Positions 8,196 to 19,786 of a stretch of DNA of 64,000 bases are shown one piece after another. Below the pieces are notes generated by a model. The model was not told the DNA's origin. It did not search any database and worked only from the letters and a program-made list of their open reading frames with translations. The position numbers and the translations under genes were made by a program. The stretch lies in NCBI RefSeq assembly GCF_001677475.2, contig NZ_CP015229.1; one strand, written 5' to 3'. Within the stretch, counting starts at the first letter, position 1. The number at the start of each line of letters is the position of its first letter. Origin of the DNA: Escherichia coli. Its GTDB lineage: Bacteria; Pseudomonadota; Gammaproteobacteria; Enterobacterales; Enterobacteriaceae.

Positions 8196-9467
8196 ATGGA
8201 AGACGACTGCGACATTATTATTATTGGTGCCGGTATTGCAGGCACCGCTTGCGCGTTACGCTGCGCGCGAGCGGGTTTATCCGTTTTGTTACTGGAACGC
8301 GCTGAAATCCCCGGCAGCAAAAATCTTTCCGGCGGGCGTTTATATACCCAGGCGCTCGCGGAACTCCTCCCACAATTTCATCTGACCGCGCCTCTTGAAC
8401 GACGCATCACTCACGAAAGCCTTTCCCTGTTAACGCCGGATGGCGCAACGACGTTTTCCAGCTTACAGCCCGGCGGTGAATCCTGGAGTGTATTACGTGC
8501 ACGTTTCGATCCGTGGCTGGTTGCCGAAGCCGAAAAAGAAGGTGTCGAATGCATCCCTGGTGCGACGGTGGATGCGCTGTATGAAGAAAACGGCAGGGTG
8601 TGTGGTGTCATTTGTGGTGACGATATTCTCCGCGCCCGTTATGTGGTGCTGGCAGAAGGTGCCAACAGCGTCCTGGCTGAACGTCACGGGTTAGTGACTC
8701 GTCCTGCTGGCGAAGCGATGGCGTTGGGGATCAAAGAAGTGCTGTCGCTGGAAACATCCGCTATTGAAGAACGTTTTCATCTGGAGAATAACGAAGGCGC
8801 AGCGTTGCTGTTCAGCGGCGGGATCTGTGATGACTTACCCGGCGGCGCATTTCTTTATACTAATCAACAAACGCTCTCGTTAGGGATTGTTTGCCCGCTC
8901 TCTTCCCTTACGCAAAGTCGTGTTCCGGCAAGCGAGCTGCTGGCTCGCTTTAAAACGCATCCGGCAGTGCGCCCGCTTATCAAAAACACGGAATCACTGG
9001 AGTATGGTGCGCATCTGGTGCCAGAAGGTGGCTTGCACAGTATGCCGGTGCAATACGCCGGTAACGGCTGGCTGCTGCTGGGCGATGCGTTGCGCAGTTG
9101 CGTCAATACCGGAATTTCCGTGCGCGGCATGGATATGGCGCTAACTGGCGCGCAGGCGGCGGCACAAACGCTGATAAGCGCCTGCCAGCATCGCGAGCCG
9201 CAAAATCTGTTTGCGCTTTATCATTACAACGTAGAGCGCAGCCTGCTGTGGGATGTTCTACAGCGCTATCAGCATGTTCCGGCGCTTTTGCAACGCCCTG
9301 GCTGGTATCGGGCGTGGCCTGCGCTAATGCAGGATATTTCCCGTGATTTATGGGATCAGGGTGATAAACCTGTTCCGCCGCTGCGCCAGTTGCTCTGGCG
9401 TCATTTACGTCGTCATGGCCTGTGGCATCTGGCGGGCGATGTTGTCAGGAGTATTCGATGTCTGTAG
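8196..9467 (+). CDS. ygcN: FixC-like electron-transfer-flavoprotein:quinone oxidoreductase (FAD-dependent)
   Basis: 423-aa frame from ATG 8196 (MEDDCDIIIIGAGIAGTACAL... with a GxGxxG FAD fold), GGGG Shine-Dalgarno 6-8 nt upstream; ORF-track start 8169 is a TTG extension. Confidence 0.88.
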   Translation: MEDDCDIIIIGAGIAGTACALRCARAGLSVLLLERAEIPGSKNLSGGRLYTQALAELLPQFHLTAPLERRITHESLSLLTPDGATTFSSLQPGGESWSVLRARFDPWLVAEAEKEGVECIPGATVDALYEENGRVCGVICGDDILRARYVVLAEGANSVLAERHGLVTRPAGEAMALGIKEVLSLETSAIEERFHLENNEGAALLFSGGICDDLPGGAFLYTNQQTLSLGIVCPLSSLTQSRVPASELLARFKTHPAVRPLIKNTESLEYGAHLVPEGGLHSMPVQYAGNGWLLLGDALRSCVNTGISVRGMDMALTGAQAAAQTLISACQHREPQNLFALYHYNVERSLLWDVLQRYQHVPALLQRPGWYRAWPALMQDISRDLWDQGDKPVPPLRQLLWRHLRRHGLWHLAGDVVRSIRCL

Positions 9468-9718
9468 CCCGTAATCTCTGGCGCGCTGCTGATGCGCCGC
9501 ACATTGTTCCGGCTGACTCCGTTGAGCGTCAGACGGTACAACGGTTGATTAACGCTTGTCCGGCTGGTCTTTTTTCGCTCACACCGGAAGGTGACTTACG
9601 CGTTGATTATCGCGGCTGCCTGGAGTGTGGCACCTGCCGTTTGCTGTGCGACGAATCAACACTACAACAGTGGCGCTATCCGCCTTCCGGATTCGGCATC
9701 ACCTACCGTTTTGGATAA
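9458..9718 (+). CDS. ygcO: FixX-like ferredoxin-like protein
   Basis: 86-aa frame MSVARNLWRA...CLECGTCRLLCDES; AGGAG 6 nt upstream of the ATG; overlaps the ygcN 3' end by 10 nt. Confidence 0.85.
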   Translation: MSVARNLWRAADAPHIVPADSVERQTVQRLINACPAGLFSLTPEGDLRVDYRGCLECGTCRLLCDESTLQQWRYPPSGFGITYRFG

Positions 9719-9734
9719 ATAATAAGGATAATTT

Positions 9735-10310
9735 ATGCCCCTCTTACACCTGCTCCGCCAGAATCCGGTGATTGCTGCCGTTAAAGATAATGCCAGCCTG
9801 CAACTGGCAATCGACTCTGAATGCCAGTTTATTTCCGTGTTGTACGGCAATATCTGCACCATTAGTCAAATCGTTAAAAAGATTAAAAATGCCGGAAAAT
9901 ATGCTTTTATTCATGTTGATTTGCTGGAAGGCGCGTCAAATAAAGAAGTGGTGATTCAGTTTTTGAAACTGGTGACTGAGGCGGATGGAATTATCAGCAC
10001 CAAAGCATCGATGCTAAAAGCGGCAAAAGCGGAAGGTTTTTTCTGTATTCATCGTCTGTTTATTGTTGATTCAATTTCGTTTCACAACATTGATAAGCAA
10101 GTTGCGCAATCGAATCCGGATTGTATTGAGATCCTGCCAGGCTGTATGCCCAAAGTGCTGGGCTGGGTGACGGAGAAAATCCGCCAACCGCTGATTGCCG
10201 GCGGGCTGGTGTGCGATGAAGAAGATGCGCGTAATGCGATTAACGCGGGTGTTGTGGCGCTTTCCACCACGAATACCGGGGTCTGGACGTTAGCGAAAAA
10301 ATTGCTTTGA
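9735..10310 (+). CDS. ygcP: GlpP-family putative transcription antiterminator
   Basis: 191-aa ORF; size and sequence fit the GlpP (glycerol-3-phosphate-responsive antiterminator) family as annotated for E. coli YgcP. Confidence 0.85.
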   Translation: MPLLHLLRQNPVIAAVKDNASLQLAIDSECQFISVLYGNICTISQIVKKIKNAGKYAFIHVDLLEGASNKEVVIQFLKLVTEADGIISTKASMLKAAKAEGFFCIHRLFIVDSISFHNIDKQVAQSNPDCIEILPGCMPKVLGWVTEKIRQPLIAGGLVCDEEDARNAINAGVVALSTTNTGVWTLAKKLL

Positions 10311-10344
10311 CGGGATACTCGTAACGAGTTGAATTTGTGTGATT

Positions 10345-10460
10345 TGTAGGCTGCACGCCACATCCGACATTCAGCGCCTGATACGACGCTTGACGCTTGA
10401 CGCGTCTTATCAGGCTTGCAAGTCCCCAGCCCAGAACCGTAGGCAGGATCATCCGGCAGC
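10345..10460. repeat. BIME / REP cluster between convergent ygcP and ygcQ
   Basis: REP-type palindromes, including GCCTGATACGACGCTTGACGCTTGACGCGTCTTATCAGGC (10376-10415) and flanking GC-rich REP-like arms. Confidence 0.65.
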
Positions 10461-10463
10461 ACG

Positions 10464-11324
10464 TTATTGGCAATCTGCGTGAATGGTTGTCACCAGTGCC
10501 TCCAGTACCGCTTTCCAGTCATCTACCACGCCAACATCTGCCTGTGAAAATACCGCTGCGCTGGCGTCATGATTAATCGCCACCACAAACTTGCTATTGC
10601 GTACGCCCGCCATTAACGCTGCTGCGCCGGAAGCGCCAACAACAATGCACACCTCAGGCGCCAGCAGATGTCCGGAAATACCAATCACTTTTTCAGCATC
10701 AACGCCACCGTTCATCACTCGCGCCCGACTGTAGCCCACTTCGGCTCCCAGCTTTTCTGCCAGCATAGCAATTTCCTGGTTATCTGCCTCTCCGCCCTGC
10801 CCCACCACCAGCACCTGTCTGGCCTCAGCTAATGGGTCGCGGGTAACATTTTTCAGGTTTTCTATGCTAACCAGCCAGTCGGGAAGCGCACCTGGGACAA
10901 TGTTCAGTTGCTGCATACCAGAGGGCAACGTGGCGTTTTTATCTGCTCCCGCCTGACGTGCCAGCGAAAGGCATAGCGGGCGTTTTTCTGTTTGCAGCGT
11001 CGCCGTTAGCGCATTTCCCCAGTGGGATTTGCGCACGCTTACGGTTGGAATATCTAACGAAGTCACCTGGCAGATGCTTGCACCATGTAAACGCCAGGCC
11101 AGCCGGGTCGACAGTTCATCGCCAAATGTTCCCGGCGGAAAGAGAACAACGTCCGCAGGCGTTCGCTGCCACTGTTCCACCAGCGCATCCAGCACCTGTT
11201 CCGCCACTACGGGCTGTGGTTCAATCTGCCAGTGCGCCAGCGTACAACCGCTGAAATCCTGCGCCGCCAGCCAGCTCGCTATTGCGGCATTCTCCTGATT
11301 TATTGTCACAATTGCGATATTCAT
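10464..11324 (-). CDS. ygcQ: electron transfer flavoprotein alpha-subunit-like (FixB-like)
   Basis: 286-aa frame from MNIAIVTINQ...; its ATG overlaps the ygcR stop (ATGA), suggesting translational coupling. Confidence 0.85.
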   Translation of the reverse strand: MNIAIVTINQENAAIASWLAAQDFSGCTLAHWQIEPQPVVAEQVLDALVEQWQRTPADVVLFPPGTFGDELSTRLAWRLHGASICQVTSLDIPTVSVRKSHWGNALTATLQTEKRPLCLSLARQAGADKNATLPSGMQQLNIVPGALPDWLVSIENLKNVTRDPLAEARQVLVVGQGGEADNQEIAMLAEKLGAEVGYSRARVMNGGVDAEKVIGISGHLLAPEVCIVVGASGAAALMAGVRNSKFVVAINHDASAAVFSQADVGVVDDWKAVLEALVTTIHADCQ

Positions 11325-12100
11325 GGCTGCATCCTTTGGCGTAAATAGTCCTGCCATAGCTTTTGCGCTTTTTCTGCTACCGTTTGCCCATCAATCAGCG
11401 TCGCTCCGCGTCGTTGCTCTGCTCTTGCCAGTTGCAGACACTGCATCGCTGGCATTTCGGCAGCAACAGTTTTACGGATAATTTCTGCTTTCCCCGCCGC
11501 CATTCGCTGACGCATTCCCGGTACTGGCAAGGCCACTTCACCGCACTGACGCACGGCAATCACCGCAGGCAAGCGAACCCGGCAACAGCGCAGCCCGTTT
11601 TCAGTACGCTGTTCGAGGGTGATAAACGGCGCGTCGAGAGTAAAACGCTCCACCTGGGTGAAGCAGGGCCAGCCCAGCATTTCCGCCAGCAAAAATGGCG
11701 TTTGCCCATTCTGCCCTTCGCTGCTTTGGCAGCCGGTAATTATCAGATCCAGCGGATTCTGACGCTGCCATTCGGCAATATGGCGAGCGACAAATTCCGG
11801 CGCAAAGCGCAGATCTGCCGCCGTCTCCAGCAATACAGCTTCCTCAAACCCAAGCGCCATGAGATAGCGCAGCCAGTGCAACGCCCGTTCATTCCCCATG
11901 CTCAACGCGGTTAAAGACATCGACGTACCGTTTTTTCTCTGCGCCAACAGCAGCGCGGCGGCAGCCTGTTCATCAGCACCGAGTAAACTTCGCAGAAACG
12001 AAACATCCGGTCCGCTATTACCCTGAGCCGCCGCCTGCCACTCTTTTTCCGCCAGCATTCCGGCATCCGGTTCGGCTTTAAACGCTAACAGAATGTTCAT
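11321..12100 (-). CDS. ygcR: electron transfer flavoprotein beta-subunit-like (FixA-like)
   Basis: 259-aa ORF with ETF-beta-like sequence. Confidence 0.88.
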   Translation of the reverse strand: MNILLAFKAEPDAGMLAEKEWQAAAQGNSGPDVSFLRSLLGADEQAAAALLLAQRKNGTSMSLTALSMGNERALHWLRYLMALGFEEAVLLETAADLRFAPEFVARHIAEWQRQNPLDLIITGCQSSEGQNGQTPFLLAEMLGWPCFTQVERFTLDAPFITLEQRTENGLRCCRVRLPAVIAVRQCGEVALPVPGMRQRMAAGKAEIIRKTVAAEMPAMQCLQLARAEQRRGATLIDGQTVAEKAQKLWQDYLRQRMQP

Positions 12101-13415
12101 TCGTACCTCCTACATTTCCCGCCGCCACCAGCGGGAGTGCTTTGGTTTCTGGTGCCCATAGCCAGGTCACGACAAAACCAACCAACAACACTGCCGCCAG
12201 GAGCAATAAGGTGACTTGCATTCCCCACTGCGCCAGCACCCACGGCAGCAGGCCAGTACTTACCGCCGCGCCCAACCGACTCATGGCGGTGGCAAAACCG
12301 ACGCCCAGCGAGCGAATGTCAGTAGGAAAACTTTCCGCAGGCAAAATGCCCACCAGATTACTGACTGCCGAAATGGTGGTGCTGAAGAGAACAAAAAGCA
12401 GCAGCGTTAATGAACTGCCGGAAGGCAAACAGGCCATCACGACCAGCGTTGCCGCCAGCAGCAAAAAACTTCCCAGCAAAAATTTGCGATGTGCCAGCAG
12501 GTGCGTCAGAACTAATCCCAGCAGCGCACCCACAATTAACAACGCATTAAGCATCAGGCTAGCGGTCAACGCATCTTCCAGACCAATAGTCTGGGCGATA
12601 GTTGGCAGCCAGGTATAAATCACAAACCATGGGATTACGAGGCAGACAAAGAAGACACTGTTAAACGCCGTGCGCCGCCAGTAGCGCGAAGAGAACAAGG
12701 TTTTGATGTGTTTATGGGTCGCCGTTGCCACTTCATCGCCCAGTAAAACATGGGGACCAAAATAGCGATGCACGATAGCGTGAGCTTCAGCAAAACGCCC
12801 CTGTCGCAGTAGCCAGCGTGGCGATTCTGGCGTTCCCCAGCGTAATAACGTAATCAATAACGCGGGCAGAGCTGCCGATGCCAGCAGCCAGCGCCAGGCC
12901 TCCGGGCTTTCGCTAATAAAGTGATGTCCGGCAATACTTGCCAGCACATAGCCTACGGTCCACACCACGCTGAACGCGCCCAGCAAAATACCGCGGTGGC
13001 GGCGCGGGGAAAATTCAGCCAGCAAGGTGTGACCGACTGAGTAATCGCCTCCCAGACCAATGCCAATCAAAATGCGCAGTCCAATAAGATGCTCTGGCGT
13101 GGTGGCAAAAAATTGTAAAAACGAAGCAAGCGTAATCAGCAAAAAGCTGAAGGTGAAGATTTTTTGTCGCCCAATATGGTCGGAGATCCAGCCCAGAACC
13201 AGGCTGCCAAGAAACAAACCAAGGAGTGCTGAGCCGCCAATCATTCCCGCCATAAACGGCGTCAGTTGCATGGCGGGCGTAAGCTGAATAATGGCGTAAC
13301 CAATGACGCCGAGGACATAACCGTCGGTCAGGTGTGCGCCGAAAGTGAGCGCAGCAATGCGGCAGTGAAAACGGTTAAGTGGTAAATCATCCATTCGCAC
13401 CGGTGAAGTGTTCAT
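12078..13415 (-). CDS. ygcS: MFS transporter (sugar-porter-like)
   Basis: 445-aa frame from MNTSPVRMDDLPL...; multiple hydrophobic helices; AAGGGG Shine-Dalgarno 6 nt upstream; 3' end overlaps ygcR by 23 nt. Confidence 0.85.
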   Translation of the reverse strand: MNTSPVRMDDLPLNRFHCRIAALTFGAHLTDGYVLGVIGYAIIQLTPAMQLTPFMAGMIGGSALLGLFLGSLVLGWISDHIGRQKIFTFSFLLITLASFLQFFATTPEHLIGLRILIGIGLGGDYSVGHTLLAEFSPRRHRGILLGAFSVVWTVGYVLASIAGHHFISESPEAWRWLLASAALPALLITLLRWGTPESPRWLLRQGRFAEAHAIVHRYFGPHVLLGDEVATATHKHIKTLFSSRYWRRTAFNSVFFVCLVIPWFVIYTWLPTIAQTIGLEDALTASLMLNALLIVGALLGLVLTHLLAHRKFLLGSFLLLAATLVVMACLPSGSSLTLLLFVLFSTTISAVSNLVGILPAESFPTDIRSLGVGFATAMSRLGAAVSTGLLPWVLAQWGMQVTLLLLAAVLLVGFVVTWLWAPETKALPLVAAGNVGGTNEHSVSV

Positions 13416-13508
13416 CTTTACCCCTTCATTGTCCGGTAATAAGAACGGCTTCTCGCCTGAGAAGCCGAAAAGGCAACGCTCCGTCATCGCGGAACGCTGC
13501 CTGACACA

Positions 13509-14963
13509 TTATTTTTCAATCGGATAGATAGTACCCGTATTCATAATGCCGTTAGGATCGAACTGCTTTTTCAGCCCTTCCAGCAACGCCCACGCGCTGC
13601 CGTGTTCCAGTTTGCTCCAGTGAACGCGATGTTTACCGATACCGTGGTGGTGCACCATCGAACCACCGAGGCGAATGGTTTCTTCGCAGATGATTTTGTT
13701 GAGCGGATTGTGGTACTTGTCGATTTCCTCTTCCGGCTTACAGTCAACGACGTTGTAGTCGTAGACGAAGTACATGTTGGTGCCGTTCTGGTAGCTATGA
13801 GAGGAGTGACCGCCCAGCATGGTGATGTCGTCGGCGTGCGGGAACTCGGTACGAATACGGTTAATAACGCTTTCGTAGATTTCGTGAATGCAGCTCCAGC
13901 AGCCGGACACTTCGGTGGTAAAGCCCATGTTGCCGGTTTTGAGGATCTGCACACGTTCAGCGGCCACTTTATCCGGCCCCCAGTTCAGGTGATTAAACCA
14001 GGTTTCGATCAGCTTGCTGTCCACTCGCTGGCATTGCGGGTAACGTGCCACGATTTCCGCAATCCCTTCGCCTGTCGCCTTCGCAATGCGAGGGTTACCT
14101 TCAGCCATAAAGATCAGCACACATTTACCATCGGCAAAATGGGTGAAGTGTTGGGTGCCATCTTCAGCGTCATACAAACGAGCGATCGACGGACGATACC
14201 CTTCCACCATGATTTCACGCAGGATGTTGAAGCCGGTTTTCATGTCTTCCAGGATATAGCCGTAGAAGAGGTTGTTTTCCGGGGTGAACTTAAAGATTTT
14301 CACAGTTACTTCAGTGATATAGCACAATGCACCTTCGTTGCCGATGATGATGTGACGAATGTCCGGGCCTGCCGCGCGGCGTGGTACGTTTTTAATGCGT
14401 GTTACGGTGCCATCAGCCAATACTGCTTCCAGACCAACGACCATATCTTCGATTGCGCCGTAGAGTGTGGAGAACTGCCCGATACTGCGGGTTGCTACCA
14501 GGCCGCCCATCTGCGCCAGCGGCTTTGACTGCGGAGAATGCCCCGTGGTGTAACCTTTTTCACGCAACGCGTTTTCCAGCACTTCCAGCGGAACACCGCA
14601 TTGCGCCGTGGCCTGCATATTCTCAATATCAATATTAATGATTTGATTCATGGCAGAGCCGTCGAGCACCACCGAGTTTTCCACAACGGTTTCCAGCCCA
14701 CCTTCGGTGGCGGAAGCACCGGTACGTGGCACACCGTTAATTTTGTGCGCATTCATAAAATTCAGCACACGGGATACTTGTTCTGTGGAACCGAGTTTTA
14801 CGACCGCTGCCGGAATCGGCAAAGTATAAATGCCATGAATATCCGGAAATTTACGAAAACGGTCAATACTGTTCTTCTTTAATACTGTTTCATCGGTAAT
14901 TATGCGATCTGCACCAACAATTTCCTTTAGCTGGTCGACAATCGCTGCGCGAGATAAAGACAT
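13509..14963 (-). CDS. ygcU: FAD-linked oxidase / dehydrogenase (alkyl-DHAP-synthase-like family)
   Basis: 484-aa ORF MSLSRAAIVDQLKEIVGADRI...; FAD-binding PCMH-type fold. Confidence 0.88.
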   Translation of the reverse strand: MSLSRAAIVDQLKEIVGADRIITDETVLKKNSIDRFRKFPDIHGIYTLPIPAAVVKLGSTEQVSRVLNFMNAHKINGVPRTGASATEGGLETVVENSVVLDGSAMNQIINIDIENMQATAQCGVPLEVLENALREKGYTTGHSPQSKPLAQMGGLVATRSIGQFSTLYGAIEDMVVGLEAVLADGTVTRIKNVPRRAAGPDIRHIIIGNEGALCYITEVTVKIFKFTPENNLFYGYILEDMKTGFNILREIMVEGYRPSIARLYDAEDGTQHFTHFADGKCVLIFMAEGNPRIAKATGEGIAEIVARYPQCQRVDSKLIETWFNHLNWGPDKVAAERVQILKTGNMGFTTEVSGCWSCIHEIYESVINRIRTEFPHADDITMLGGHSSHSYQNGTNMYFVYDYNVVDCKPEEEIDKYHNPLNKIICEETIRLGGSMVHHHGIGKHRVHWSKLEHGSAWALLEGLKKQFDPNGIMNTGTIYPIEK

Positions 14964-15032
14964 AGTAATTCCTTCCTGATAATAAAAATGGAATAATCAT
15001 TAATAAGAGAAAACAGAAACCACCGTTATGGA

Positions 15033-15818
15033 TTAGCGCACTAAATAACCACCATCGACCACTAATAAATGCCCGTTAACATAATTTGAAGCCGGACTTG
15101 CGAGGAATACGGCTGCGCCCATTAAATCCTGAGTATCGCCCCAACGGTTTGCTGGAATATGATCAAGAACGCGCTGATTGGTTTCTGGATTACTGCGTGT
15201 CGCCAGCGTAATATCTGTTGCATAATAGCCAGGGGCAATACCATTTACCTGAATATTATATTGACCTAGTTCATCACAATAAGCTTTGGTGAATCCGGCA
15301 AGAGCATGTTTAGTGGCAGAATATGCAGGTGACCATTGTCCACCTAAGTAAGAGAATAATGAACAGATATTAATGATTTTACCGCTTTTCTGCGGGATCA
15401 TAATTTTTGCAGCTTCATAGCTTAACTCGAATGCGGCGGTCAGGTTCACATCAATCATCGGGTCCCAGTCGGCACGACCGAAGTCCAGCACCTTATTCAG
15501 CTTACAAATACCGGCATTGTTAATCAGAATATCGACGGTACCGAAACGTTCGCAACAGGCGGCGATTATCTTCTGCGGCGCGCCTTCTGCGGTGATATCC
15601 ACCTGCATGAAGTCCACCTCAACACCCTGTTTTTCAATCATTTCCTTTGTTTCGCCGTTATCTTTAACGAAGCTTGGAATAAAGATATTTGCGCCTGCTT
15701 TGGCCAGCGCCATGGCAAATGCCTGGCCTAAACCGCTATTCCCGCCGGTAACAATTGCGGTTTTACCTTTCAGGGAGAAAAAATCCATTGAGAACGCATT
15801 GAGAGATTCGATTGACAT
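15033..15818 (-). CDS. ygcW: short-chain dehydrogenase/reductase (SDR) family oxidoreductase
   Basis: 261-aa frame MSIESLNAFSMDFFSLKGKTAIVTGGNSGLGQA (TGxxxGxG NAD(P) motif); GGAG 7 nt upstream of ATG 15816-15818. ORF-track extension to 15893 reads through the leader terminator and is rejected. Confidence 0.88.
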   Translation of the reverse strand: MSIESLNAFSMDFFSLKGKTAIVTGGNSGLGQAFAMALAKAGANIFIPSFVKDNGETKEMIEKQGVEVDFMQVDITAEGAPQKIIAACCERFGTVDILINNAGICKLNKVLDFGRADWDPMIDVNLTAAFELSYEAAKIMIPQKSGKIINICSLFSYLGGQWSPAYSATKHALAGFTKAYCDELGQYNIQVNGIAPGYYATDITLATRSNPETNQRVLDHIPANRWGDTQDLMGAAVFLASPASNYVNGHLLVVDGGYLVR

Positions 15819-15841
15819 AGTTAGCTCCAATTTCCGTAAGG

Positions 15842-15890
15842 CAAAAAAAAAGAAAGGTAACTTCCCCCGCGAGAGGGAAGTTACCTTTCT
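15842..15890 (-). terminator. Intrinsic (Rho-independent) terminator in the 5' leader of ygcW; candidate antitermination target
   Basis: Minus-strand RNA: 15-bp perfect inverted repeat (15852-15866 / 15875-15889, 8-nt spacer) followed by nine U (complement of the A-run 15843-15851), ending 24 nt upstream of the ygcW start codon. Confidence 0.7.
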
Positions 15891-16064
15891 CATTATCTCT
15901 GGTAACTGGAGATAATTTTTATCATAAGGGCATAATCGCTAATGTGATCGTAATCACAGTGTGATATTCGAATTGTCAAATAATTTTAAAAAGCAGAAGC
16001 GTGATTACTCTCACACAACACCACTGCTTTCCATGTTATTTCTTATTGCAATTACTAGAGACCT

Positions 16065-16112
16065 GAGAAAAGTAATCCACCTGAAAGGGCGGCTTACTTT
16101 TCTCTTTTTTTT
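16065..16112 (+). terminator. Intrinsic terminator in the 5' leader of yqcE; candidate antitermination target
   Basis: 11-bp perfect inverted repeat GAGAAAAGTAA (16065-16075) / TTACTTTTCTC (16094-16104) followed by eight T (16105-16112), ending 25 nt upstream of the yqcE ATG; sequence-related to the ygcW leader terminator. Confidence 0.7.
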
Positions 16113-16136
16113 GTCTATTACAAATGGGAATACGAT

Positions 16137-17414
16137 ATGCAACACAACTCATATCGCCGTTGGATAACCCTCGCGATAATTAGTTTTAGCGGCGGCGTTA
16201 GTTTCGACCTGGCTTATTTACGTTATATTTATCAAATTCCCATGGCGAAATTTATGGGATTCAGCAATACCGAGATAGGTTTAATAATGAGTACCTTTGG
16301 TATTGCGGCTATTATTCTTTATGCCCCCAGCGGCGTTATTGCCGATAAATTTTCACACCGCAAAATGATTACTTCCGCGATGATCATTACCGGATTACTG
16401 GGTCTGTTAATGGCAACATATCCACCGCTGTGGGTAATGCTCTGTATTCAGGTCGCCTTTGCGATAACGACGATTTTAATGCTGTGGTCGGTGTCGATTA
16501 AAGCCGCATCGTTGCTGGGCGATCATAGCGAGCAAGGGAAAATTATGGGCTGGATGGAAGGGCTGCGCGGCGTCGGTGTAATGTCGCTGGCGGTGTTTAC
16601 CATGTGGGTCTTTTCTCGCTTTGCACCGGATGACAGCGCCAGCCTGAAAACGGTCATTATTATCTATAGTGTGGTTTACATTCTGCTGGGCATTTTGTGT
16701 TGGTTTTTTGTTAGCGATAACAACAACCTGCGCAATACCAATAACGAAGAAAAACAGTCATTCCAGCTTAGCGACATCCTGGCCGTTTTGCGCATCAGCA
16801 CCACCTGGTATTGCAGCATGGTGATTTTTGGTGTCTTCACCATCTACGCCATTCTGAGTTACTCCACCAACTATCTGACCGAAATGTACGGCATGTCGCT
16901 GGTGGCGGCGAGCTACATGGGGATTGTGATCAACAAAATATTCCGCGCACTGTGCGGCCCACTTGGTGGCATTATCACCACCTACAGCAAAGTGAAATCC
17001 CCTACCCGCGTGATCCAAATCCTTTCCGTACTCGGCTTGCTGGCGTTAACTGCCCTGCTCGTCACGAACTCTAACCCGCAATCGGTCGCGATGGGGATTG
17101 GCCTGATTTTACTGCTGGGATTCACCTGTTACGCCTCACGCGGGCTGTACTGGGCCTGCCCTGGCGAAGCGAGAACACCGTCTTACATTATGGGCACCAC
17201 GGTAGGTATTTGTTCGGTGATTGGATTCCTGCCGGATGTCTTCGTTTACCCGATTATCGGCTACTGGCAAGACACCCTGCCCGCTGCAGAAGCCTACCGC
17301 AATATGTGGCTGATGGGCATGGCGGCGCTTGCCATGGTGATCGTCTTTACCTTTTTGCTGTTCCAAAAAATTCGTACTGCTGATAGCACCCCTGCTATGG
17401 CTAGCAGCAAGTAA
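16137..17414 (+). CDS. yqcE: MFS transporter
   Basis: 425-aa ORF with about 12 hydrophobic segments; GGGA Shine-Dalgarno upstream. Confidence 0.88.
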   Translation: MQHNSYRRWITLAIISFSGGVSFDLAYLRYIYQIPMAKFMGFSNTEIGLIMSTFGIAAIILYAPSGVIADKFSHRKMITSAMIITGLLGLLMATYPPLWVMLCIQVAFAITTILMLWSVSIKAASLLGDHSEQGKIMGWMEGLRGVGVMSLAVFTMWVFSRFAPDDSASLKTVIIIYSVVYILLGILCWFFVSDNNNLRNTNNEEKQSFQLSDILAVLRISTTWYCSMVIFGVFTIYAILSYSTNYLTEMYGMSLVAASYMGIVINKIFRALCGPLGGIITTYSKVKSPTRVIQILSVLGLLALTALLVTNSNPQSVAMGIGLILLLGFTCYASRGLYWACPGEARTPSYIMGTTVGICSVIGFLPDVFVYPIIGYWQDTLPAAEAYRNMWLMGMAALAMVIVFTFLLFQKIRTADSTPAMASSK

Positions 17415-17440
17415 GTCCAGAAAATTACAGGAGAAAAATC

Positions 17441-18919
17441 ATGTCGAAAAAATACATCATAGGGATTGATGGCGGAAGTCAGAGCACAAAAGTGGTGATG
17501 TATGATCTGGAAGGTAATGTGGTTTGCGAAGGCAAAGGCTTATTGCAGCCGATGCACACGCCAGATGCCGATACCGCAGAACATCCTGACGACGATTTAT
17601 GGGCATCATTATGTTTTGCCGGTCACGATTTGATGAGTCAGTTTGCCGGGAATAAAGAAGATATTGTCGGTATTGGTCTGGGATCCATCCGTTGCTGCCG
17701 TGCGTTATTGAAAGCCGATGGCACGCCAGCTGCGCCGTTGATTAGCTGGCAGGATGCACGCGTTACACGCCCTTACGAACATACGAATCCTGACGTGGCA
17801 TATGTCACCTCTTTTTCAGGTTATCTGACGCATCGCTTAACCGGCGAGTTTAAAGACAATATCGCCAACTATTTTGGTCAGTGGCCGGTGGATTATAAGA
17901 CCTGGGCATGGAGCGAAGATGCCGCGGTAATGGAAAAGTTTAATATCCCCCGCCAGATGCTTTTTGACGTGCAAATGCCGGGCACCGTTCTTGGGCATAT
18001 CACACCTCAAGCCGCGCTGGCGACGCATTTCCCGGCAGGACTGCCGGTTGTTTGTACCACCAGTGATAAACCGGTAGAAGCTCTGGGAGCTGGGTTACTG
18101 GATGATGAAACGGCGGTGATTTCTCTTGGCACCTACATCGCGCTGATGATGAACGGTAAAGCACTGCCGAAAGATCCAGTAGCGTACTGGCCGATTATGT
18201 CTTCTATTCCGCAAACATTGCTGTATGAAGGTTACGGTATCCGCAAAGGCATGTGGACAGTAAGCTGGCTGCGCGACATGTTAGGCGAGTCGTTAATTCA
18301 GGATGCCAAAGCACAGGATCTTTCACCGGAAGATTTGCTCAACAAAAAAGCTTCTTATGTGCCGCCTGGCTGTAATGGTCTGATGACGGTGCTGGACTGG
18401 CTGACCAATCCGTGGGAACCGTACAAACGCGGGATTATGATCGGCTTTGATTCCAGCATGGATTACGCATGGATATATCGTTCGATACTGGAAAGCGTGG
18501 CGCTGACGCTGAAGAACAATTACGACAATATGTGTAATGAAATGAATCACTTTGCAAAGCATGTGATCATTACTGGCGGCGGTTCGAACAGCGATCTGTT
18601 TATGCAGATTTTTGCCGACGTGTTCAACCTTCCGGCACGCCGTAACGCCATTAATGGTTGTGCAAGCCTGGGGGCAGCGATTAATACGGCGGTAGGTCTG
18701 GGGCTATACCCGGATTACGCAACGGCTGTCGACAAAATGGTTCGCGTGAAAGATATCTTTATGCCTGTTGAGAGCAACGCCAAACGCTACGACGCGATGA
18801 ATAAAGGCATTTTCAAAGACCTAACCAAACACACTGATGTGATCCTGAAAAAATCGTATGAAGTGATGCATGGTGAGCTGGGAAATGCGGATTCTATCCA
18901 GAGCTGGTCGAATGCGTGA
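17441..18919 (+). CDS. ygcE: FGGY-family carbohydrate kinase
   Basis: 492-aa ORF MSKKYIIGIDGGSQSTKVVMYD... (FGGY N-terminal motif). Confidence 0.9.
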   Translation: MSKKYIIGIDGGSQSTKVVMYDLEGNVVCEGKGLLQPMHTPDADTAEHPDDDLWASLCFAGHDLMSQFAGNKEDIVGIGLGSIRCCRALLKADGTPAAPLISWQDARVTRPYEHTNPDVAYVTSFSGYLTHRLTGEFKDNIANYFGQWPVDYKTWAWSEDAAVMEKFNIPRQMLFDVQMPGTVLGHITPQAALATHFPAGLPVVCTTSDKPVEALGAGLLDDETAVISLGTYIALMMNGKALPKDPVAYWPIMSSIPQTLLYEGYGIRKGMWTVSWLRDMLGESLIQDAKAQDLSPEDLLNKKASYVPPGCNGLMTVLDWLTNPWEPYKRGIMIGFDSSMDYAWIYRSILESVALTLKNNYDNMCNEMNHFAKHVIITGGGSNSDLFMQIFADVFNLPARRNAINGCASLGAAINTAVGLGLYPDYATAVDKMVRVKDIFMPVESNAKRYDAMNKGIFKDLTKHTDVILKKSYEVMHGELGNADSIQSWSNA

Positions 18920-18965
18920 ATGAGGTAGGCCGGGCGGAAAACTGCCCGGCCTGAACATACCTAAA

Positions 18966-19786
18966 TGGTTATCCCCGCTAACGCGGGGAACTCACTGAAA
19001 ACACCGGCGAGATCGTATTTTTTGCCGGTTTATCCCCGCTCGCGCGGGGAACTCTACCGGAAGGCAGGCACATTAGATCAGGTGATCGGTTTATCCCCGC
19101 TCGCGCGGGGAACTCCAGTGAGCGGAAGAAGAATGACTAACAGAGAGCGGTTTATCCCCGCTCGCGCGGGGAACTCCCCAGCCACAACAGCCACGCGTCG
19201 CGCTGTTCCGGTTTATCCCCGCTCGCGCGGGGAACTCGGAAACCGCCCCGGCGGTGGTTGGCTGTTTGCCGGTTTATCCCCGCTCGCGCGGGGAACTCTT
19301 TGCGCCGGAAATAGGAATCGTATTCGGTCTCGGTTTATCCCCGCTCGCGCGGGGAACTCTTATGCATCTCATCAAGCTTGTCGCCAAACGACGGTTTATC
19401 CCCGCTCGCGCGGGGAACTCTTAAATCGCGCTGGAAAAAAATGGTTTTTGCGCGGTTTATCCCCGCTCGCGCGGGGAACTCACACCCCGTTGCAATAAAT
19501 GGTCTGGGGGCTGCGGTTTATCCCCGCTCGCGCGGGGAACTCCAAACGCTTCTTCGTAGGCAGCACTGTAGGCCCGGTTTATCCCCGCTCGCGCGGGGAA
19601 CTCGGTGAAAAGATGAGTGCATACTGGTTTGTTTTCGGTTTATCCCCGCTCGCGCGGGGAACTCTCTTTTCCCGCTAATCACGACCAGATCCTGTCCGGT
19701 TTATCCCCGCTCGCGCGGGGAACTCGTAAAACCTCCTCGCGCCCACAATCGCAGCGGCGGTTTATCCCCGCTCGCGCGGGGAACTC
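18966..19786 (-). CRISPR. CRISPR array, 14 repeats (29 nt) and 13 spacers (32 nt each); orphan array between ygcE and queE
   Basis: Thirteen identical repeats CGGTTTATCCCCGCTCGCGCGGGGAACTC (plus-strand reading) at 19026, 19087, 19148, 19209, 19270, 19331, 19392, 19453, 19514, 19575, 19636, 19697 and 19758, plus one degenerate terminal repeat TGGTTATCCCCGCTAACGCGGGGAACTC at 18966-18993. AT-rich leader lies at the high-coordinate end, so the array is read on the minus strand. Confidence 0.97.

What the first reader, a model, noticed from the sequence alone, without database searches (positions are those of the whole stretch)
8196..18919. ygc cluster as an uncharacterised kinase / FAD-oxidase / ETF catabolic module resembling a glp-type regulon
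Ten contiguous genes combine an FGGY kinase (ygcE), an FAD-linked oxidase (ygcU), an SDR oxidoreductase (ygcW), two MFS transporters (ygcS, yqcE), a FixABCX-like electron-transfer set (ygcR = ETF beta, ygcQ = ETF alpha, ygcN = ETF:quinone oxidoreductase, ygcO = ferredoxin-like) and a GlpP-like antiterminator (ygcP). Tight junctions are seen in sequence: ygcR/ygcQ ATGA overlap, ygcS/ygcR 23-nt overlap, ygcN/ygcO 10-nt overlap. A 9-bp perfect hairpin (13446-13467) sits in the ygcU-ygcS gap and may be an internal attenuator. Inference: uptake of an unknown polyol or sugar, phosphorylation by YgcE, oxidation by YgcU/YgcW with electrons passed through ETF to the quinone pool, regulated by antitermination, analogous to Gram-positive GlpP-GlpF-GlpK-GlpD logic. 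The substrate is unknown.
Basis: partly seen in the sequence, partly recalled or inferred. Interest (0 to 1): 0.65.

Follow-up and report, generated by a model that had tools for sequence, protein, structure and literature searches.

The report
E. coli ygc cluster with antiterminator leaders
The ten-gene E. coli ygc cluster is real and still has no known substrate, and I found that two of its operons start with a strongly conserved RNA "stop/go" leader that travels with the GlpP-like protein YgcP across three bacterial phyla, which makes its regulation and unusual enzyme chemistry directly testable.

Summary
Window 8196-18919 carries intact ygcN-O-P, ygcW-U-S-R-Q and yqcE-ygcE, with the stated 10-, 23- and 4-nt overlaps and the 9-bp hairpin at 13446-13467.

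- **Antitermination:** The ygcW leader (15843-15915, minus strand) and the yqcE leader (16042-16112, plus strand) each carry the same ~70-nt element. A 6-bp helix (RUUACY/RGUAAY) with a conserved AGAG...GAGAAA loop overlaps the 5' arm of a strong terminator followed by a U-run.
- **Distribution:** a covariance model finds only these two copies in 64 kb, and 114 copies in 83 related loci (Enterobacterales, Photobacterium, Bacillota, Saccharopolyspora). The helix covaries, the element co-occurs with YgcP, and Rfam has no match.
- **Catabolite control:** a CRP palindrome sits ~35 nt upstream of each leader in 44/44 enterobacterial loci.
- **YgcU:** it is not GlpD- or GlcD-like. It keeps the catalytic Arg, Tyr and HHH loop of alkyl-DHAP synthase.
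- **Core and accessories:** the conserved core is YgcW+YgcU+YgcE+YgcP. ETF is optional and FixCX is found only in Enterobacterales.
- **Other phyla:** the same leader controls BCCT and OpuA-type betaine transporters and an MttB methyltransferase.

The substrate is still unknown. I infer a glycerol-like "glyceryl-X" compound.

The parts
8196..9467 (+). ygcN, a FixC-like FAD-dependent oxidoreductase (putative ETF:quinone oxidoreductase)
   Evidence: ORF; RefSeq annotation; NCBIfam PRK10015 at 377 bits and FixC at 362 bits, both below cut-off. Found only in Enterobacterales loci.
9458..9718 (+). ygcO, a FixX-like ferredoxin; overlaps ygcN by 10 nt
   Evidence: NCBIfam FixX at 84 bits.
9735..10310 (+). 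ygcP, a GlpP-family (PF04309) protein and the proposed antiterminator acting on the two leaders
   Evidence: PDB 3kts at E=3.6e-28 and 1vkf at E=3e-15; PF04309 in homologs. It is 55-62% identical to orthologs in Bacillota and Photobacterium. It co-occurs with the leader element: 57/1/4/17.
10464..11324 (-). ygcQ, ETF alpha/FixB-like subunit
   Evidence: Evolves fast: 58% identity in Klebsiella spallanzanii versus 94-97% for the core genes.
11321..12100 (-). ygcR, ETF beta/FixA-like subunit; ATGA overlap with ygcQ
12078..13415 (-). ygcS, MFS transporter; conserved start at 13415, 23-nt overlap with ygcR
   Evidence: The start was chosen by conservation of the ATG and of SD GAAGGGG across Enterobacterales.
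13446..13467 (-).
   Evidence: Conserved with compensatory changes and followed by T6-7 in many relatives. No match to leader model R1.
13471..13500 (-). Hairpin A, a 13-bp stem found only in Escherichia; the PGAP ATG for ygcS (13485-13487) lies in its loop
13509..14963 (-). ygcU, a VAO-family flavoprotein with the alkyl-DHAP-synthase catalytic signature (R262, Y398, H438-H440)
   Evidence: PDB profile search: AGPS 4bby at E=2.8e-56, with residues aligned; invariant columns. It is 65-76% identical across phyla.
15033..15818 (-). ygcW, a KduD/gluconate-5-dehydrogenase-like SDR and first gene of the ygcW-U-S-R-Q operon
   Evidence: NCBIfam KduD at 350 bits, below the 369 cut-off; PDB 4z9y at E=2e-58. 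It is 65-82% identical across phyla.
15843..15915 (-). ygcW leader element. P1 pairs 15906-15901 (GUUACC) with 15885-15880 (GGUAAC). The terminator stem is 15891-15850 and the U-run is 15851-15843. It ends 25 nt before the ATG at 15818.
   Evidence: dG -42 kcal/mol, z = -6.7. Model R1 scores 70.2 bits, E=3e-12. Covariation.
15943..15958 (.). CRP-consensus palindrome TGTGATCGTAATCACA (10/10), serving the ygcW promoter (-10-like TATGAT at 15926-15921)
   Evidence: The position relative to the leader is conserved in 44/44 Enterobacterales loci. Predicted earlier by PhyloScan.
16000..16015 (.). Second CRP-like palindrome CGTGATTACTCTCACA (9/10), serving the yqcE promoter
16042..16112 (+). yqcE leader element. 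P1 pairs 16051-16056 (AUUACU) with 16071-16076 (AGUAAU). The terminator stem is 16065-16104 and the U-run is 16105-16112. It ends 24 nt before the ATG at 16137.
   Evidence: Model R1 scores 70.9 bits, E=2e-12.
16137..17414 (+). yqcE, MFS transporter, co-transcribed with ygcE
   Evidence: The yqcE>ygcE pair follows the leader in 44 loci.
17441..18919 (+). ygcE, FGGY-family kinase with an intact N-terminal GIDGGSQSTK phosphate-binding motif
   Evidence: best PDB match LsrK, E=6.5e-30, then glycerol kinases.

Best explanation
The ygc cluster is a catabolite-controlled, inducer-dependent pathway for an unidentified compound that carries a glycerol-like end (CH2OH-CHOH-CH2-X). It is switched on by protein-mediated transcription antitermination.

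**Regulation**
1. Two divergent promoters, each with a CRP site about 41 nt upstream of the likely start, transcribe ygcW-U-S-R-Q and yqcE-ygcE.
2. Each transcript begins with the same ~70-nt leader. By default a strong intrinsic terminator forms and transcription stops before the first gene.
3. When YgcP (GlpP family) has bound the phosphorylated intermediate made by YgcE, it binds the AGAG...GAGAAA loop. This stabilises the weak 6-bp helix P1, whose 3' strand is part of the terminator's 5' arm. The terminator then cannot form and the operon is read.
4. This is the B. subtilis GlpP/glycerol-3-phosphate logic with a different RNA sequence and probably a different ligand.

**Pathway (inferred)**
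1. YqcE and/or YgcS import the compound.
2. YgcE phosphorylates the primary hydroxyl.
3. YgcW oxidises the neighbouring secondary hydroxyl, giving a C1-substituted dihydroxyacetone phosphate.
4. YgcU uses the alkyl-DHAP-synthase machinery (enolisation by Tyr, covalent flavin N5 adduct, loss of the C1 substituent) to release X. The product is either DHAP (redox-neutral) or an oxidised triose phosphate plus reduced FAD.
5. In E. coli, YgcR/Q and YgcN/O would then carry those electrons to quinone.

**Shown versus inferred.** Shown here: the genes, the leader element, its covariation, its co-occurrence with YgcP, the CRP sites and the AGPS catalytic residues. Inferred: the ligand, RNA binding by YgcP, the order of enzymatic steps, the nature of X and the direction of electron flow.
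For: **Leader element**
- Terminators lie directly upstream of ygcW and yqcE.
- The same element lies upstream of orthologs in about 60 loci.
- P1 helix in a 48-sequence alignment: 91% of cells paired, 4 of 6 pairs with compensatory double changes, and 0/500 shuffles reach the observed values. Slid controls give 19-63% paired.
- The two E. coli leaders themselves differ by compensatory changes: GUUACC/GGUAAC versus AUUACU/AGUAAU.
- Terminator: 13 pairs, 7 with compensatory changes.
- Model R1 finds only two true hits in the 64-kb window (E about 1e-12) and 114 hits in 83 loci.
- The hits lie upstream of ygcW operons (56), yqcE-ygcE (44), BCCT genes (5), ygcU (4), an OpuA-type ABC operon and an MttB gene.
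- P1 alone is weak (-1.4 to -7 kcal/mol) against -20 to -31 kcal/mol for the terminator, so it needs a stabilising factor.

**Link to YgcP and to the known GlpP system**
- Co-occurrence with YgcP is 57/1/4/17; outside Enterobacterales it is 16/1/1/16, Fisher p=2.5e-7.
- The B. subtilis glpD 5'UTR has the same architecture: GGUC...UGAGAUGAGGAGA...GACC overlapping the terminator arm (sequence from PMC9604022 Table S4). That paper describes a GlpP site plus an inherent terminator in all three glp leaders.

**CRP.** CRP sites are positionally conserved in 44/44 loci.

**Enzymes**
- In YgcU, AGPS Arg419, Tyr578 and His615-617 align with invariant R262, Y398 and H438-440.
- The nearest solved relatives of YgcE phosphorylate a terminal CH2OH next to a CHOH (LsrK, glycerol kinases).
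- YgcW is nearest to KduD and gluconate 5-dehydrogenase.
- The core YgcW+YgcU+YgcE+YgcP is conserved across phyla.
- Neighbours in some loci include glycerol dehydrogenase and an aldo-keto reductase whose best NCBIfam matches include L-glyceraldehyde-3-phosphate reductase.
Against: - There is no experimental evidence for any step.
- YgcP has never been shown to bind RNA, and its ligand is unknown.
- The ygc leader differs in sequence from the one experimentally studied GlpP target.
- ygcNOP has no leader element, so how YgcP itself is expressed is unknown.
- P1 is only 6 bp. Much of its covariation separates two paralogous leader lineages, so the number of independent events is smaller than the cell counts suggest.
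- YgcU lacks the roughly 160-180 N-terminal residues of AGPS that help form the fatty-alcohol tunnel, so its substrate must differ. A plain dehydrogenase role cannot be excluded.
- ETF genes are absent from about a third of clusters. In anaerobes they sit next to an LctD-like oxidase, so the YgcU-to-ETF link is weak.
- The betaine-transporter association is seen outside Enterobacterales and may not apply to E. coli, which uses MFS carriers.
Confidence: 0.55

Rival explanations
1. YgcU is an ordinary D-2-hydroxyacid (lactate, glycolate or 2-hydroxyglutarate-type) dehydrogenase that passes electrons to YgcR/Q and then to YgcN/O and quinone, as in LctBCD or D2HGDH-ETF systems. On this view the kinase and SDR feed a sugar-acid route, and the resemblance to AGPS is only phylogenetic.
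For: YgcU belongs to the same VAO/GlcD superfamily: GlcD TIGR00387 at 143 bits, glycolate oxidase 9qgz at E=1e-36 and LctD at E=3e-26. ETF genes are adjacent in about two thirds of clusters.
Against: Only the FAD-binding half aligns to GlcD, LctD, LDHD and D2HGDH. The C-terminal catalytic half aligns only to AGPS, and it carries the AGPS-specific HHHG(I/V)GK loop, Tyr and Arg. Where a true LctD-like oxidase exists, it is a separate gene placed after the ETF pair. Many clusters have no ETF genes at all.
Confidence: 0.2
2. The module works reductively, like E. coli cai/fix. YgcN/O and YgcR/Q would deliver electrons to YgcU, which reductively removes a leaving group (for example a trimethylammonium group) from the substituted ketone phosphate. 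The compound would then serve as an anaerobic electron sink rather than a carbon source.
For: YgcRQNO is a paralogous FixABCX set. From established knowledge, E. coli FixABCX supplies electrons for crotonobetaine reduction in the carnitine pathway, which uses the BCCT carrier CaiT. Homologous clusters in anaerobes carry BCCT or OpuA transporters and MttB-family genes under the same leader. ETF is present mainly in facultative or strict anaerobes and absent from aerobic halophiles.
Against: CRP control suggests carbon catabolism. FixC/X are absent outside Enterobacterales. I have no direct evidence on direction. AGPS chemistry as known is redox-neutral.
Confidence: 0.12
3. The leader is a small riboswitch or a factor-independent attenuator, and YgcP is an enzyme (a phosphate-binding TIM-barrel-like protein) rather than the RNA-binding regulator.
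For: YgcP is unusually conserved for a regulator, at 55-62% identity between E. coli and Bacillota. The PF04309 structures 1vkf and 3kts are structural-genomics entries with no demonstrated RNA binding.
Against: The element and YgcP co-occur almost perfectly. The sensing part, a 14-19-nt loop closed by 6 bp, is very small for an aptamer. The homolog GlpP is an experimentally established antiterminator acting on leaders of the same architecture. High conservation of YgcP parallels the high sequence conservation of the RNA loop.
Confidence: 0.08

Closest known systems
Bacillus subtilis GlpP with the glpD, glpFK and glpTQ leader terminators (glycerol-3-phosphate-dependent antitermination)
   Same: Both have a PF04309 protein. 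Both have a leader in which an intrinsic terminator lies immediately downstream of the promoter, and an upstream segment pairs with the terminator's 5' arm across a GAGA-rich loop. In both, the transporter-plus-FGGY-kinase operon and the downstream oxidation operon are controlled separately, and catabolite control is added on top (CcpA there, CRP here).
   Different: The RNA sequence differs: RUUACY-AGAG-N-GAGAAA-RGUAAY here versus GGUC-CUGAGAUGAGGAGA-GACC in glpD. YgcP orthologs form their own highly conserved subfamily. The hosts include Proteobacteria and Actinomycetota. The controlled enzymes are an SDR plus an AGPS-like flavoprotein rather than GlpD. The ligand is unknown, and nothing has been tested experimentally.
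Alkyl-dihydroxyacetonephosphate synthase (AGPS/ADPS; PDB 4bby, 2uuu)
   Same: Same VAO-type fold family. It is the best PDB match over both halves of YgcU. The catalytic Arg419, Tyr578 and His615-617 loop are conserved as R262, Y398 and H438-440.
   Different: YgcU lacks the N-terminal ~160-180 residues of AGPS. It sits in a CRP-controlled catabolic operon with a kinase, an SDR and transporters, and is often next to ETF genes. There is no sign of ether-lipid synthesis genes.
E. coli caiTABCDE/fixABCX and ydiQRST (FixABCX-type electron-transfer sets)
   Same: YgcR/Q/N/O are paralogs of FixA/B/C/X. Clusters related to ygc in other phyla use BCCT carriers, as the cai system uses CaiT.
   Different: The partner enzyme is a VAO-family flavoprotein, not an acyl-CoA dehydrogenase. 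There are no CoA-transferase or ligase genes. FixC/X are dispensable in most homologous clusters.
Acetobacterium woodii LctBCD (lactate dehydrogenase with ETF)
   Same: In anaerobic homologs the gene order is ETF beta, ETF alpha, then an LctD-like oxidase. In some loci a second ETF pair follows, whose alpha subunit (in Photobacterium) shows a faint ferredoxin-domain Pfam hit.
   Different: E. coli has no LctD-like gene. YgcU is a different, AGPS-like branch of the family.
LsrK and GlpK (FGGY kinases)
   Same: They are the best solved relatives of YgcE. The N-terminal phosphate-binding motif is intact.
   Different: YgcE scores below every curated equivalog cut-off. Its N-terminal ~120 residues are divergent.

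Membership tests
GlpP-type antitermination system | Regulator belongs to PF04309 (G3P_antiterm) | tested here: met
   PDB 3kts at E=3.6e-28 over residues 11-184; PF04309 is precomputed for all listed homologs and for cluster neighbours.
GlpP-type antitermination system | Target operons begin with a leader holding an intrinsic terminator just downstream of the promoter | tested here: met
   ygcW leader 15891-15850 followed by a U-run; yqcE leader 16065-16104 followed by U8. The same holds in about 60 loci.
GlpP-type antitermination system | An alternative upstream pairing overlaps the terminator 5' arm (the antiterminator) | tested here: met
   P1 is 6 bp, 91% paired, with 4/6 pairs showing compensatory changes and 0/500 shuffles reaching the observed values. 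An analogous GGUC/GACC pairing can be read in the B. subtilis glpD UTR.
GlpP-type antitermination system | Same RNA recognition sequence as the B. subtilis glp leaders | tested here: not met
   The glpD UTR shares the architecture and GAGA-rich loop but not the RUUACY...GAGAAARGUAAY consensus. I judged this by eye, because the model could not be run on the published sequence.
GlpP-type antitermination system | The protein binds leader RNA and prevents termination in response to glycerol-3-phosphate | not testable with these tools
   This needs RNA-binding and in vitro transcription assays. Here there is only co-occurrence of YgcP and the element.
Alkyl-DHAP synthase (AGPS) family | VAO/PCMH-type FAD_binding_4 plus FAD-oxidase_C architecture | tested here: met
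   PF01565 and PF02913 occur in all homologs. AGPS is the top PDB match, E=2.8e-56.
Alkyl-DHAP synthase (AGPS) family | Catalytic Arg419, Tyr578 and the His615-His617 loop | tested here: met
   The alignment, with the R419H and Y578F mutant chains marking the positions, places them on YgcU R262, Y398 and H438-H440. All are invariant in 12 diverse orthologs.
Alkyl-DHAP synthase (AGPS) family | N-terminal domain contributing to the fatty-alcohol tunnel | tested here: not met
   YgcU is 484 aa. Its alignment starts at AGPS residue ~183 (guinea pig) or ~137 (Dictyostelium). The role of the N-terminal region is from my recollection of the AGPS structure papers.
Alkyl-DHAP synthase (AGPS) family | Exchange of an acyl group for an alkyl group on DHAP through a flavin adduct | not testable with these tools
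   This needs enzymology.
GlcD / D-lactate dehydrogenase / D2HGDH-type 2-hydroxyacid dehydrogenases | The C-terminal substrate domain is alignable to these enzymes | tested here: not met
   Matches to 9qgz, 7qh2_C, 8jdc and 6lpn cover only YgcU residues ~7-265, the FAD domain. By contrast, the separate LctD-like paralog in anaerobes aligns to them over its full length.
FixABCX-type electron-transfer set | All four components (ETF beta, ETF alpha, FixC-like oxidoreductase, FixX-like ferredoxin) are present | tested here: met
   NCBIfam hits for YgcR, YgcQ, YgcN and YgcO, all below curated cut-offs; RefSeq product names.
FixABCX-type electron-transfer set | The set is conserved together with its partner dehydrogenase | tested here: inconclusive
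   FixC/X accompany YgcU only in Enterobacterales. ETF is absent from seven Enterobacterales loci (Erwinia, Pantoea, Izhakiella, Serratia proteamaculans and others) and from Halobacillus, Virgibacillus and Saccharopolyspora loci.
Rfam RNA families | The leader matches a curated covariance model | tested here: not met
   No hit comes near a gathering score in the window or in Halobacillus.

The most novel reading that the evidence does not exclude
The cluster may encode a previously undescribed catabolic route. In this reading a bacterial homolog of the ether-lipid enzyme alkyl-DHAP synthase runs degradatively. It would strip a substituent (an ether-linked betaine head group, a phosphodiester, a quaternary ammonium group or similar) from a C1-substituted dihydroxyacetone phosphate made by a dedicated kinase and dehydrogenase. 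The whole regulon would be governed by a new, undescribed class of GlpP-family protein/leader-RNA switch shared by Proteobacteria, Bacillota and Actinomycetota.
Probability: 0.3. Interest if true: 0.85.

Novelty: new variant of a known kind. Interest (0 to 1): 0.68.

Why it matters
- **An unassigned core cluster.** The ygc genes are carried by nearly every E. coli genome, yet none has a function. The cluster recurs with 65-80% protein identity across three or more phyla.
- **A clean experimental handle.** The conserved leader element gives two short RNAs, one candidate protein and compensatory mutations to test. The inducer could be found by screening for read-through.
- **Reach of GlpP-type control.** If YgcP is the factor, GlpP-type antitermination extends beyond Gram-positive glycerol genes into Enterobacterales, with a distinct RNA code. 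It is also a compact, portable terminator/antiterminator pair for synthetic biology, like the B. subtilis one.
- **New flavoenzyme chemistry.** The AGPS-type active site in a catabolic operon points to chemistry not yet described in bacteria.
- **A narrower substrate search.** The link to betaine transporters and MttB methyltransferases in marine and anaerobic bacteria narrows the search for the substrate.

Tried and rejected
1. **Published function.** Eight full-text searches used gene names, the Pfam name, AGPS plus catabolism, and BCCT plus FGGY. I found no substrate assignment. The hits were genomic SELEX lists, a D-serine transcriptome mention, a computational CRP prediction and a YcgO/YgcO typo.
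2. **Curated equivalogs.** No ygc protein reaches any NCBIfam cut-off.
3. **Rfam.** Nothing matched the leaders or the ygcU-ygcS spacer.
Rejected. It lacks the conserved loop and P1, and model R1 does not hit it.
5. **The extra hairpin in the E. coli ygcW leader** (15916-15892, UUAUCUC.../...GAGAUAA). It is not conserved in relatives, so I did not count it as part of the element.
6. **A leader upstream of ygcN.** None was found.
7. **Identifying the substrate from neighbours.** Genes seen include betaine transporters, MttB with a corrinoid protein and a methyl-THF methyltransferase, PanB-like and proline-racemase-like genes, glycerol dehydrogenase, an aldo-keto reductase and an aldehyde dehydrogenase. 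They are suggestive, but they do not converge on one compound.
8. **Structure prediction of YgcU.** Not run. The available alignment is shallow (all orthologs above 65% identical), and the sequence alignment to AGPS already covers the catalytic residues.
9. **Running the model on the B. subtilis glpD UTR.** Not possible, because the model searches only session sequences. I compared them by eye.

Full report
**1. What is in the window**

Window 8196-18919 is the E. coli ygc region. Megablast finds it in 5417 of 5426 complete E. coli genomes. In 5060 of them one match covers at least 80% of the region, and the best full-length matches are 98.1% identical. RefSeq annotation of one of these and the ORF list agree on ten genes in three transcription units:
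- ygcN-ygcO-ygcP on the plus strand
- ygcW-ygcU-ygcS-ygcR-ygcQ on the minus strand
- yqcE-ygcE on the plus strand

The flanks are queD on one side and a CRISPR array followed by queE on the other. All ten ORFs are intact and have Shine-Dalgarno sequences.

**2. Family assignments**

- YgcN is FixC-like and YgcO is FixX-like.
- YgcR is ETF beta and YgcQ is ETF alpha.
- YgcS and YqcE are MFS carriers.
- YgcW is a KduD-like SDR.
- YgcE is an FGGY kinase.
- YgcU carries FAD_binding_4 plus FAD-oxidase_C.
- YgcP is PF04309/GlpP-like.

This rests. None reaches a curated NCBIfam cut-off, so no characterised equivalog exists in that library as of June 2026. Eight full-text literature searches found no substrate assignment. 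A March 2026 paper still treats YgcU as a generic FAD-binding oxidoreductase.

**3.

The hairpin at 13446-13467 is real. It is one of two adjacent stem-loops in the ygcU-ygcS spacer, which folds with z = -5.8. RefSeq starts ygcS at 13487, which lies inside the loop of the first stem-loop. Across about 35 Enterobacterales loci that extension is absent, while the ATG at 13415 with its GAAGGGG Shine-Dalgarno is conserved.

In many species it is followed by T6-7. No room is left for a promoter before ygcS. Relatives that lack ETF genes have an operon that ends after ygcU. I therefore read this hairpin as a conserved leaky terminator or 3' stabiliser at the old end of a ygcW-ygcU operon, with ygcS-R-Q appended behind it. 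It has none of the features of the element described next.

**4. The leader element**

A terminator scan flagged a 19-bp stem plus U-run on the minus strand at 15891-15850, inside the ygcW 5' leader. Reading the opposite strand showed a sister structure before yqcE. Both share GAGAAARGUAA...UUACYUUUCUY followed by U8.

I extracted the upstream regions of ygcW and yqcE orthologs from 83 loci fetched through YgcU. The same element appears in Enterobacterales, Photobacterium, Halobacillus, Thalassobacillus, Virgibacillus, Geosporobacter, Dethiosulfatibacter, Sporomusa, uncultured Bacillota and Saccharopolyspora.

Its consensus has four parts, in order:
- a 5' strand RUUACY
- a loop AGAG-N4-7-GAGAAA
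- a 3' strand RGUAAY that is also part of the terminator's 5' arm
- the rest of the terminator and a U-run

The evidence for the structure is as follows:
- The 6-bp helix (P1) covaries: GUUACC/GGUAAC, AUUACU/AGUAAU, GUUGCC/GGCGAC and GUCGCC/GGCGAC. The first two are the two E. coli copies themselves.
- On a 48-sequence alignment 91% of cells pair, 4 of 6 pairs show double changes, and no shuffle of 500 reaches the observed values. Slid controls give 19-63% paired.
- The terminator has 13 consensus pairs, 7 with compensatory changes.
- A covariance model finds exactly two true hits in the 64-kb window: 15843-15915 (-) and 16042-16112 (+), at about 70 bits and E about 1e-12.
- The model finds 114 hits in the 83 loci.
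- Rfam 15 has nothing comparable.

**5. What the element controls, and its partner**

| Gene or operon downstream of the element | Hits |
|---|---|
| ygcW operons | 56 |
| yqcE-ygcE | 44 |
| BCCT transporter genes | 5 |
| Internal site before ygcU (Clostridia) | 4 |
| OpuA-type ABC operon | 1 |
| MttB-family methyltransferase operon | 1 |

One further hit precedes an ORF that is probably the Saccharopolyspora flava ygcW, and two have no assignable downstream gene.

Presence of the element tracks presence of a YgcP ortholog. The table is 57/1/4/17 over all loci and 16/1/1/16 outside Enterobacterales, with Fisher p=2.5e-7 (not corrected for phylogeny). Three of the five discordant loci are short contigs, and in a fourth (Serratia microhaemolytica) a ygcP homolog lies on another contig.

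P1 alone is weak, at -1.4 to -7 kcal/mol, against -20 to -31 kcal/mol for the terminator. This is what is expected if a protein must hold P1.

The experimentally studied B. subtilis glpD 5'UTR, taken from PMC9604022 Table S4, has the same architecture. A short upstream strand (GGUC) can pair with GACC at the start of the terminator arm, across a GAGA-rich loop. That paper states that all three GlpP-controlled leaders hold a GlpP site and an inherent terminator. The sequences differ, however.

YgcP orthologs are 55-62% identical between E. coli and Bacillota, and they match the Listeria GlpP-like structure only at E=4e-28. They therefore look like a distinct subfamily with its own RNA code.

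**6. Catabolite control**

The 318-bp divergent region holds two CRP-consensus palindromes, at 15943-15958 (10/10) and 16000-16015 (9/10). In all 44 enterobacterial divergent regions there are two such sites, each centred 33-36 nt upstream of the start of its own leader hit. This fits class II CRP promoters. The sites were predicted computationally in 2007.

**7. The enzymes**

*YgcU.* It is 65-76% identical from E. coli to Sporomusa, Halobacillus, Desulfobacula and Saccharopolyspora. A profile of 12 orthologs matches alkyl-DHAP synthase best (E=2.8e-56). AGPS is the only solved family that aligns to the C-terminal half. Using the R419H and Y578F mutant chains as markers, AGPS Arg419, Tyr578 and His615-617 fall on YgcU R262, Y398 and H438-440, all invariant. 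GlcD, LctD, LDHD and D2HGDH align only over the FAD domain. YgcU lacks the AGPS N-terminal region.

*YgcE and YgcW.* The nearest solved relatives of YgcE, LsrK and glycerol kinases, phosphorylate a terminal CH2OH next to a CHOH. The nearest relatives of YgcW oxidise a secondary alcohol next to such a terminus.

*Proposed route (inference).* Kinase plus SDR would convert CH2OH-CHOH-CH2-X into X-CH2-CO-CH2-OP, an analogue of the acyl- or alkyl-DHAP that AGPS handles. YgcU would then remove X through a flavin adduct. This would be either redox-neutral, giving DHAP, or would leave FAD reduced.

**8. ETF and FixCX**

- The conserved core is YgcW+YgcU+YgcE+YgcP.
- ETF genes accompany it in about two thirds of loci.
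- FixC/X occur only in Enterobacterales.
- ETF is absent from seven Enterobacterales loci (Erwinia, Pantoea, Izhakiella, Serratia proteamaculans and others) and from Halobacillus, Virgibacillus and Saccharopolyspora.
- In anaerobes the order is YgcU, ETF beta, ETF alpha, then an oxidase whose best PDB hit is LctD. This is the lctBCD arrangement, so the ETF there may serve that enzyme instead.
- In Enterobacterales the ETF and FixCX proteins diverge much faster than the core. In Klebsiella spallanzanii they are 58-77% identical, against 94-97% for YgcW, YgcU and YgcP.

The direction of electron flow is open. The cai/fix precedent, known from the literature on carnitine respiration, would allow a reductive role.

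**9. Substrate**

Outside Enterobacterales the regulon includes betaine-type importers and, in some loci, an MttB-family methyltransferase with a corrinoid protein and a methyl-THF methyltransferase. Many of these hosts are marine or halophilic. Other neighbours include glycerol dehydrogenase, an aldo-keto reductase whose best NCBIfam matches include L-glyceraldehyde-3-phosphate reductase, and aldehyde dehydrogenase.

This points to a zwitterionic or quaternary-ammonium compound with a glycerol-type end. Examples would be a deacylated betaine-lipid or phospholipid head group. I could not narrow it further, and E. coli uses MFS carriers, so the compound may differ there.

**10. Verdict**

The oxidase is AGPS-like, and ETF is an accessory. 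I rate the finding a new variant of a known kind: GlpP-type antitermination with a new, undescribed leader class, controlling an uncharacterised pathway. There is a fair chance that the enzymology is new.

Noticed in passing
window 18965-19786: A CRISPR array begins 46 nt after the ygcE stop codon. It has 14 copies of a 29-nt repeat (CGGTTTATCCCCGCTCGCGCGGGGAACTC) at 61-nt spacing. The 177-aa ORF at 18965-19498 in the mechanical ORF list is an artefact of the array.
   Followed up: partly
window 15943-15958 and 16000-16015: Two CRP-consensus palindromes lie in the ygcW/yqcE divergent region. In 44/44 Enterobacterales loci each is centred 33-36 nt upstream of the start of its leader element. 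This suggests class II CRP promoters. A 2007 computational paper (PMC1794230) had already ranked yqcE/ygcW among the top predicted CRP targets.
   Followed up: yes
window 13416-13487: The RefSeq/PGAP start of ygcS (ATG 13485-13487, giving 469 aa) lies in the loop of a 13-bp hairpin and is not conserved outside Escherichia. The conserved start is 13415 (445 aa). The public annotation of this gene start is probably wrong in many E. coli records.
   Followed up: yes
L008-L049 (Enterobacterales loci) compared with window 8196-12100: The ETF and FixCX proteins (YgcR, YgcQ, YgcN, YgcO) diverge far faster than the core enzymes and YgcP within Enterobacterales. In Klebsiella spallanzanii they are 58-77% identical, against 94-97% for YgcW, YgcU and YgcP. 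I have no explanation: it could be relaxed constraint or a change of partner.
   Followed up: no
L002, L004, L051-L055, L063-L065, L069: In anaerobic homologs the YgcU gene is followed by ETF beta, ETF alpha and an LctD-like oxidase, which is the lctBCD order. In some loci a second ETF pair follows; the alpha subunit of the Photobacterium one shows a faint ferredoxin-domain Pfam hit. E. coli has lost, or never had, the LctD-like gene.
   Followed up: partly
L063:9844-9911, L064:9822-9912, L069:8709-8797: Some Clostridia carry an extra copy of the leader element inside the operon, between ygcE and ygcU. Antitermination would therefore be needed twice along one transcript.
   Followed up: no
L071 and L072 (uncultured Bacillota): In L072 an operon directly preceded by the leader element encodes an MttB-family methyltransferase, a PanB-like protein, an OpuA-type ABC transporter and a proline-racemase/hydroxyproline-epimerase-like protein. 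L071 carries the same genes. This is an unusual combination whose link to the kinase/SDR/YgcU core is unclear.
   Followed up: partly
L005 (Planctomycetota MAG contig) and L028 (Chryseobacterium sp. contig): These contigs carry ygc genes 99% and 88% identical to the E. coli proteins, and L028 has enterobacterial gene order. They are probably contaminating enterobacterial contigs in those assemblies.
   Followed up: no
window 10327-10416: The convergent ygcP/ygcQ gap holds an inverted repeat that looks like a REP element. It has a weak, sub-threshold match to Rfam naRNA4 (25.5 bits against a gathering score of 59.5).
   Followed up: no
window 8196-18919 against E. coli genomes: All but one of the 5417 matching complete E. 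coli genomes are below 99% identical to this window (the best full-length matches are 98.1%). The source strain therefore carries a somewhat unusual allele of the region.
   Followed up: no
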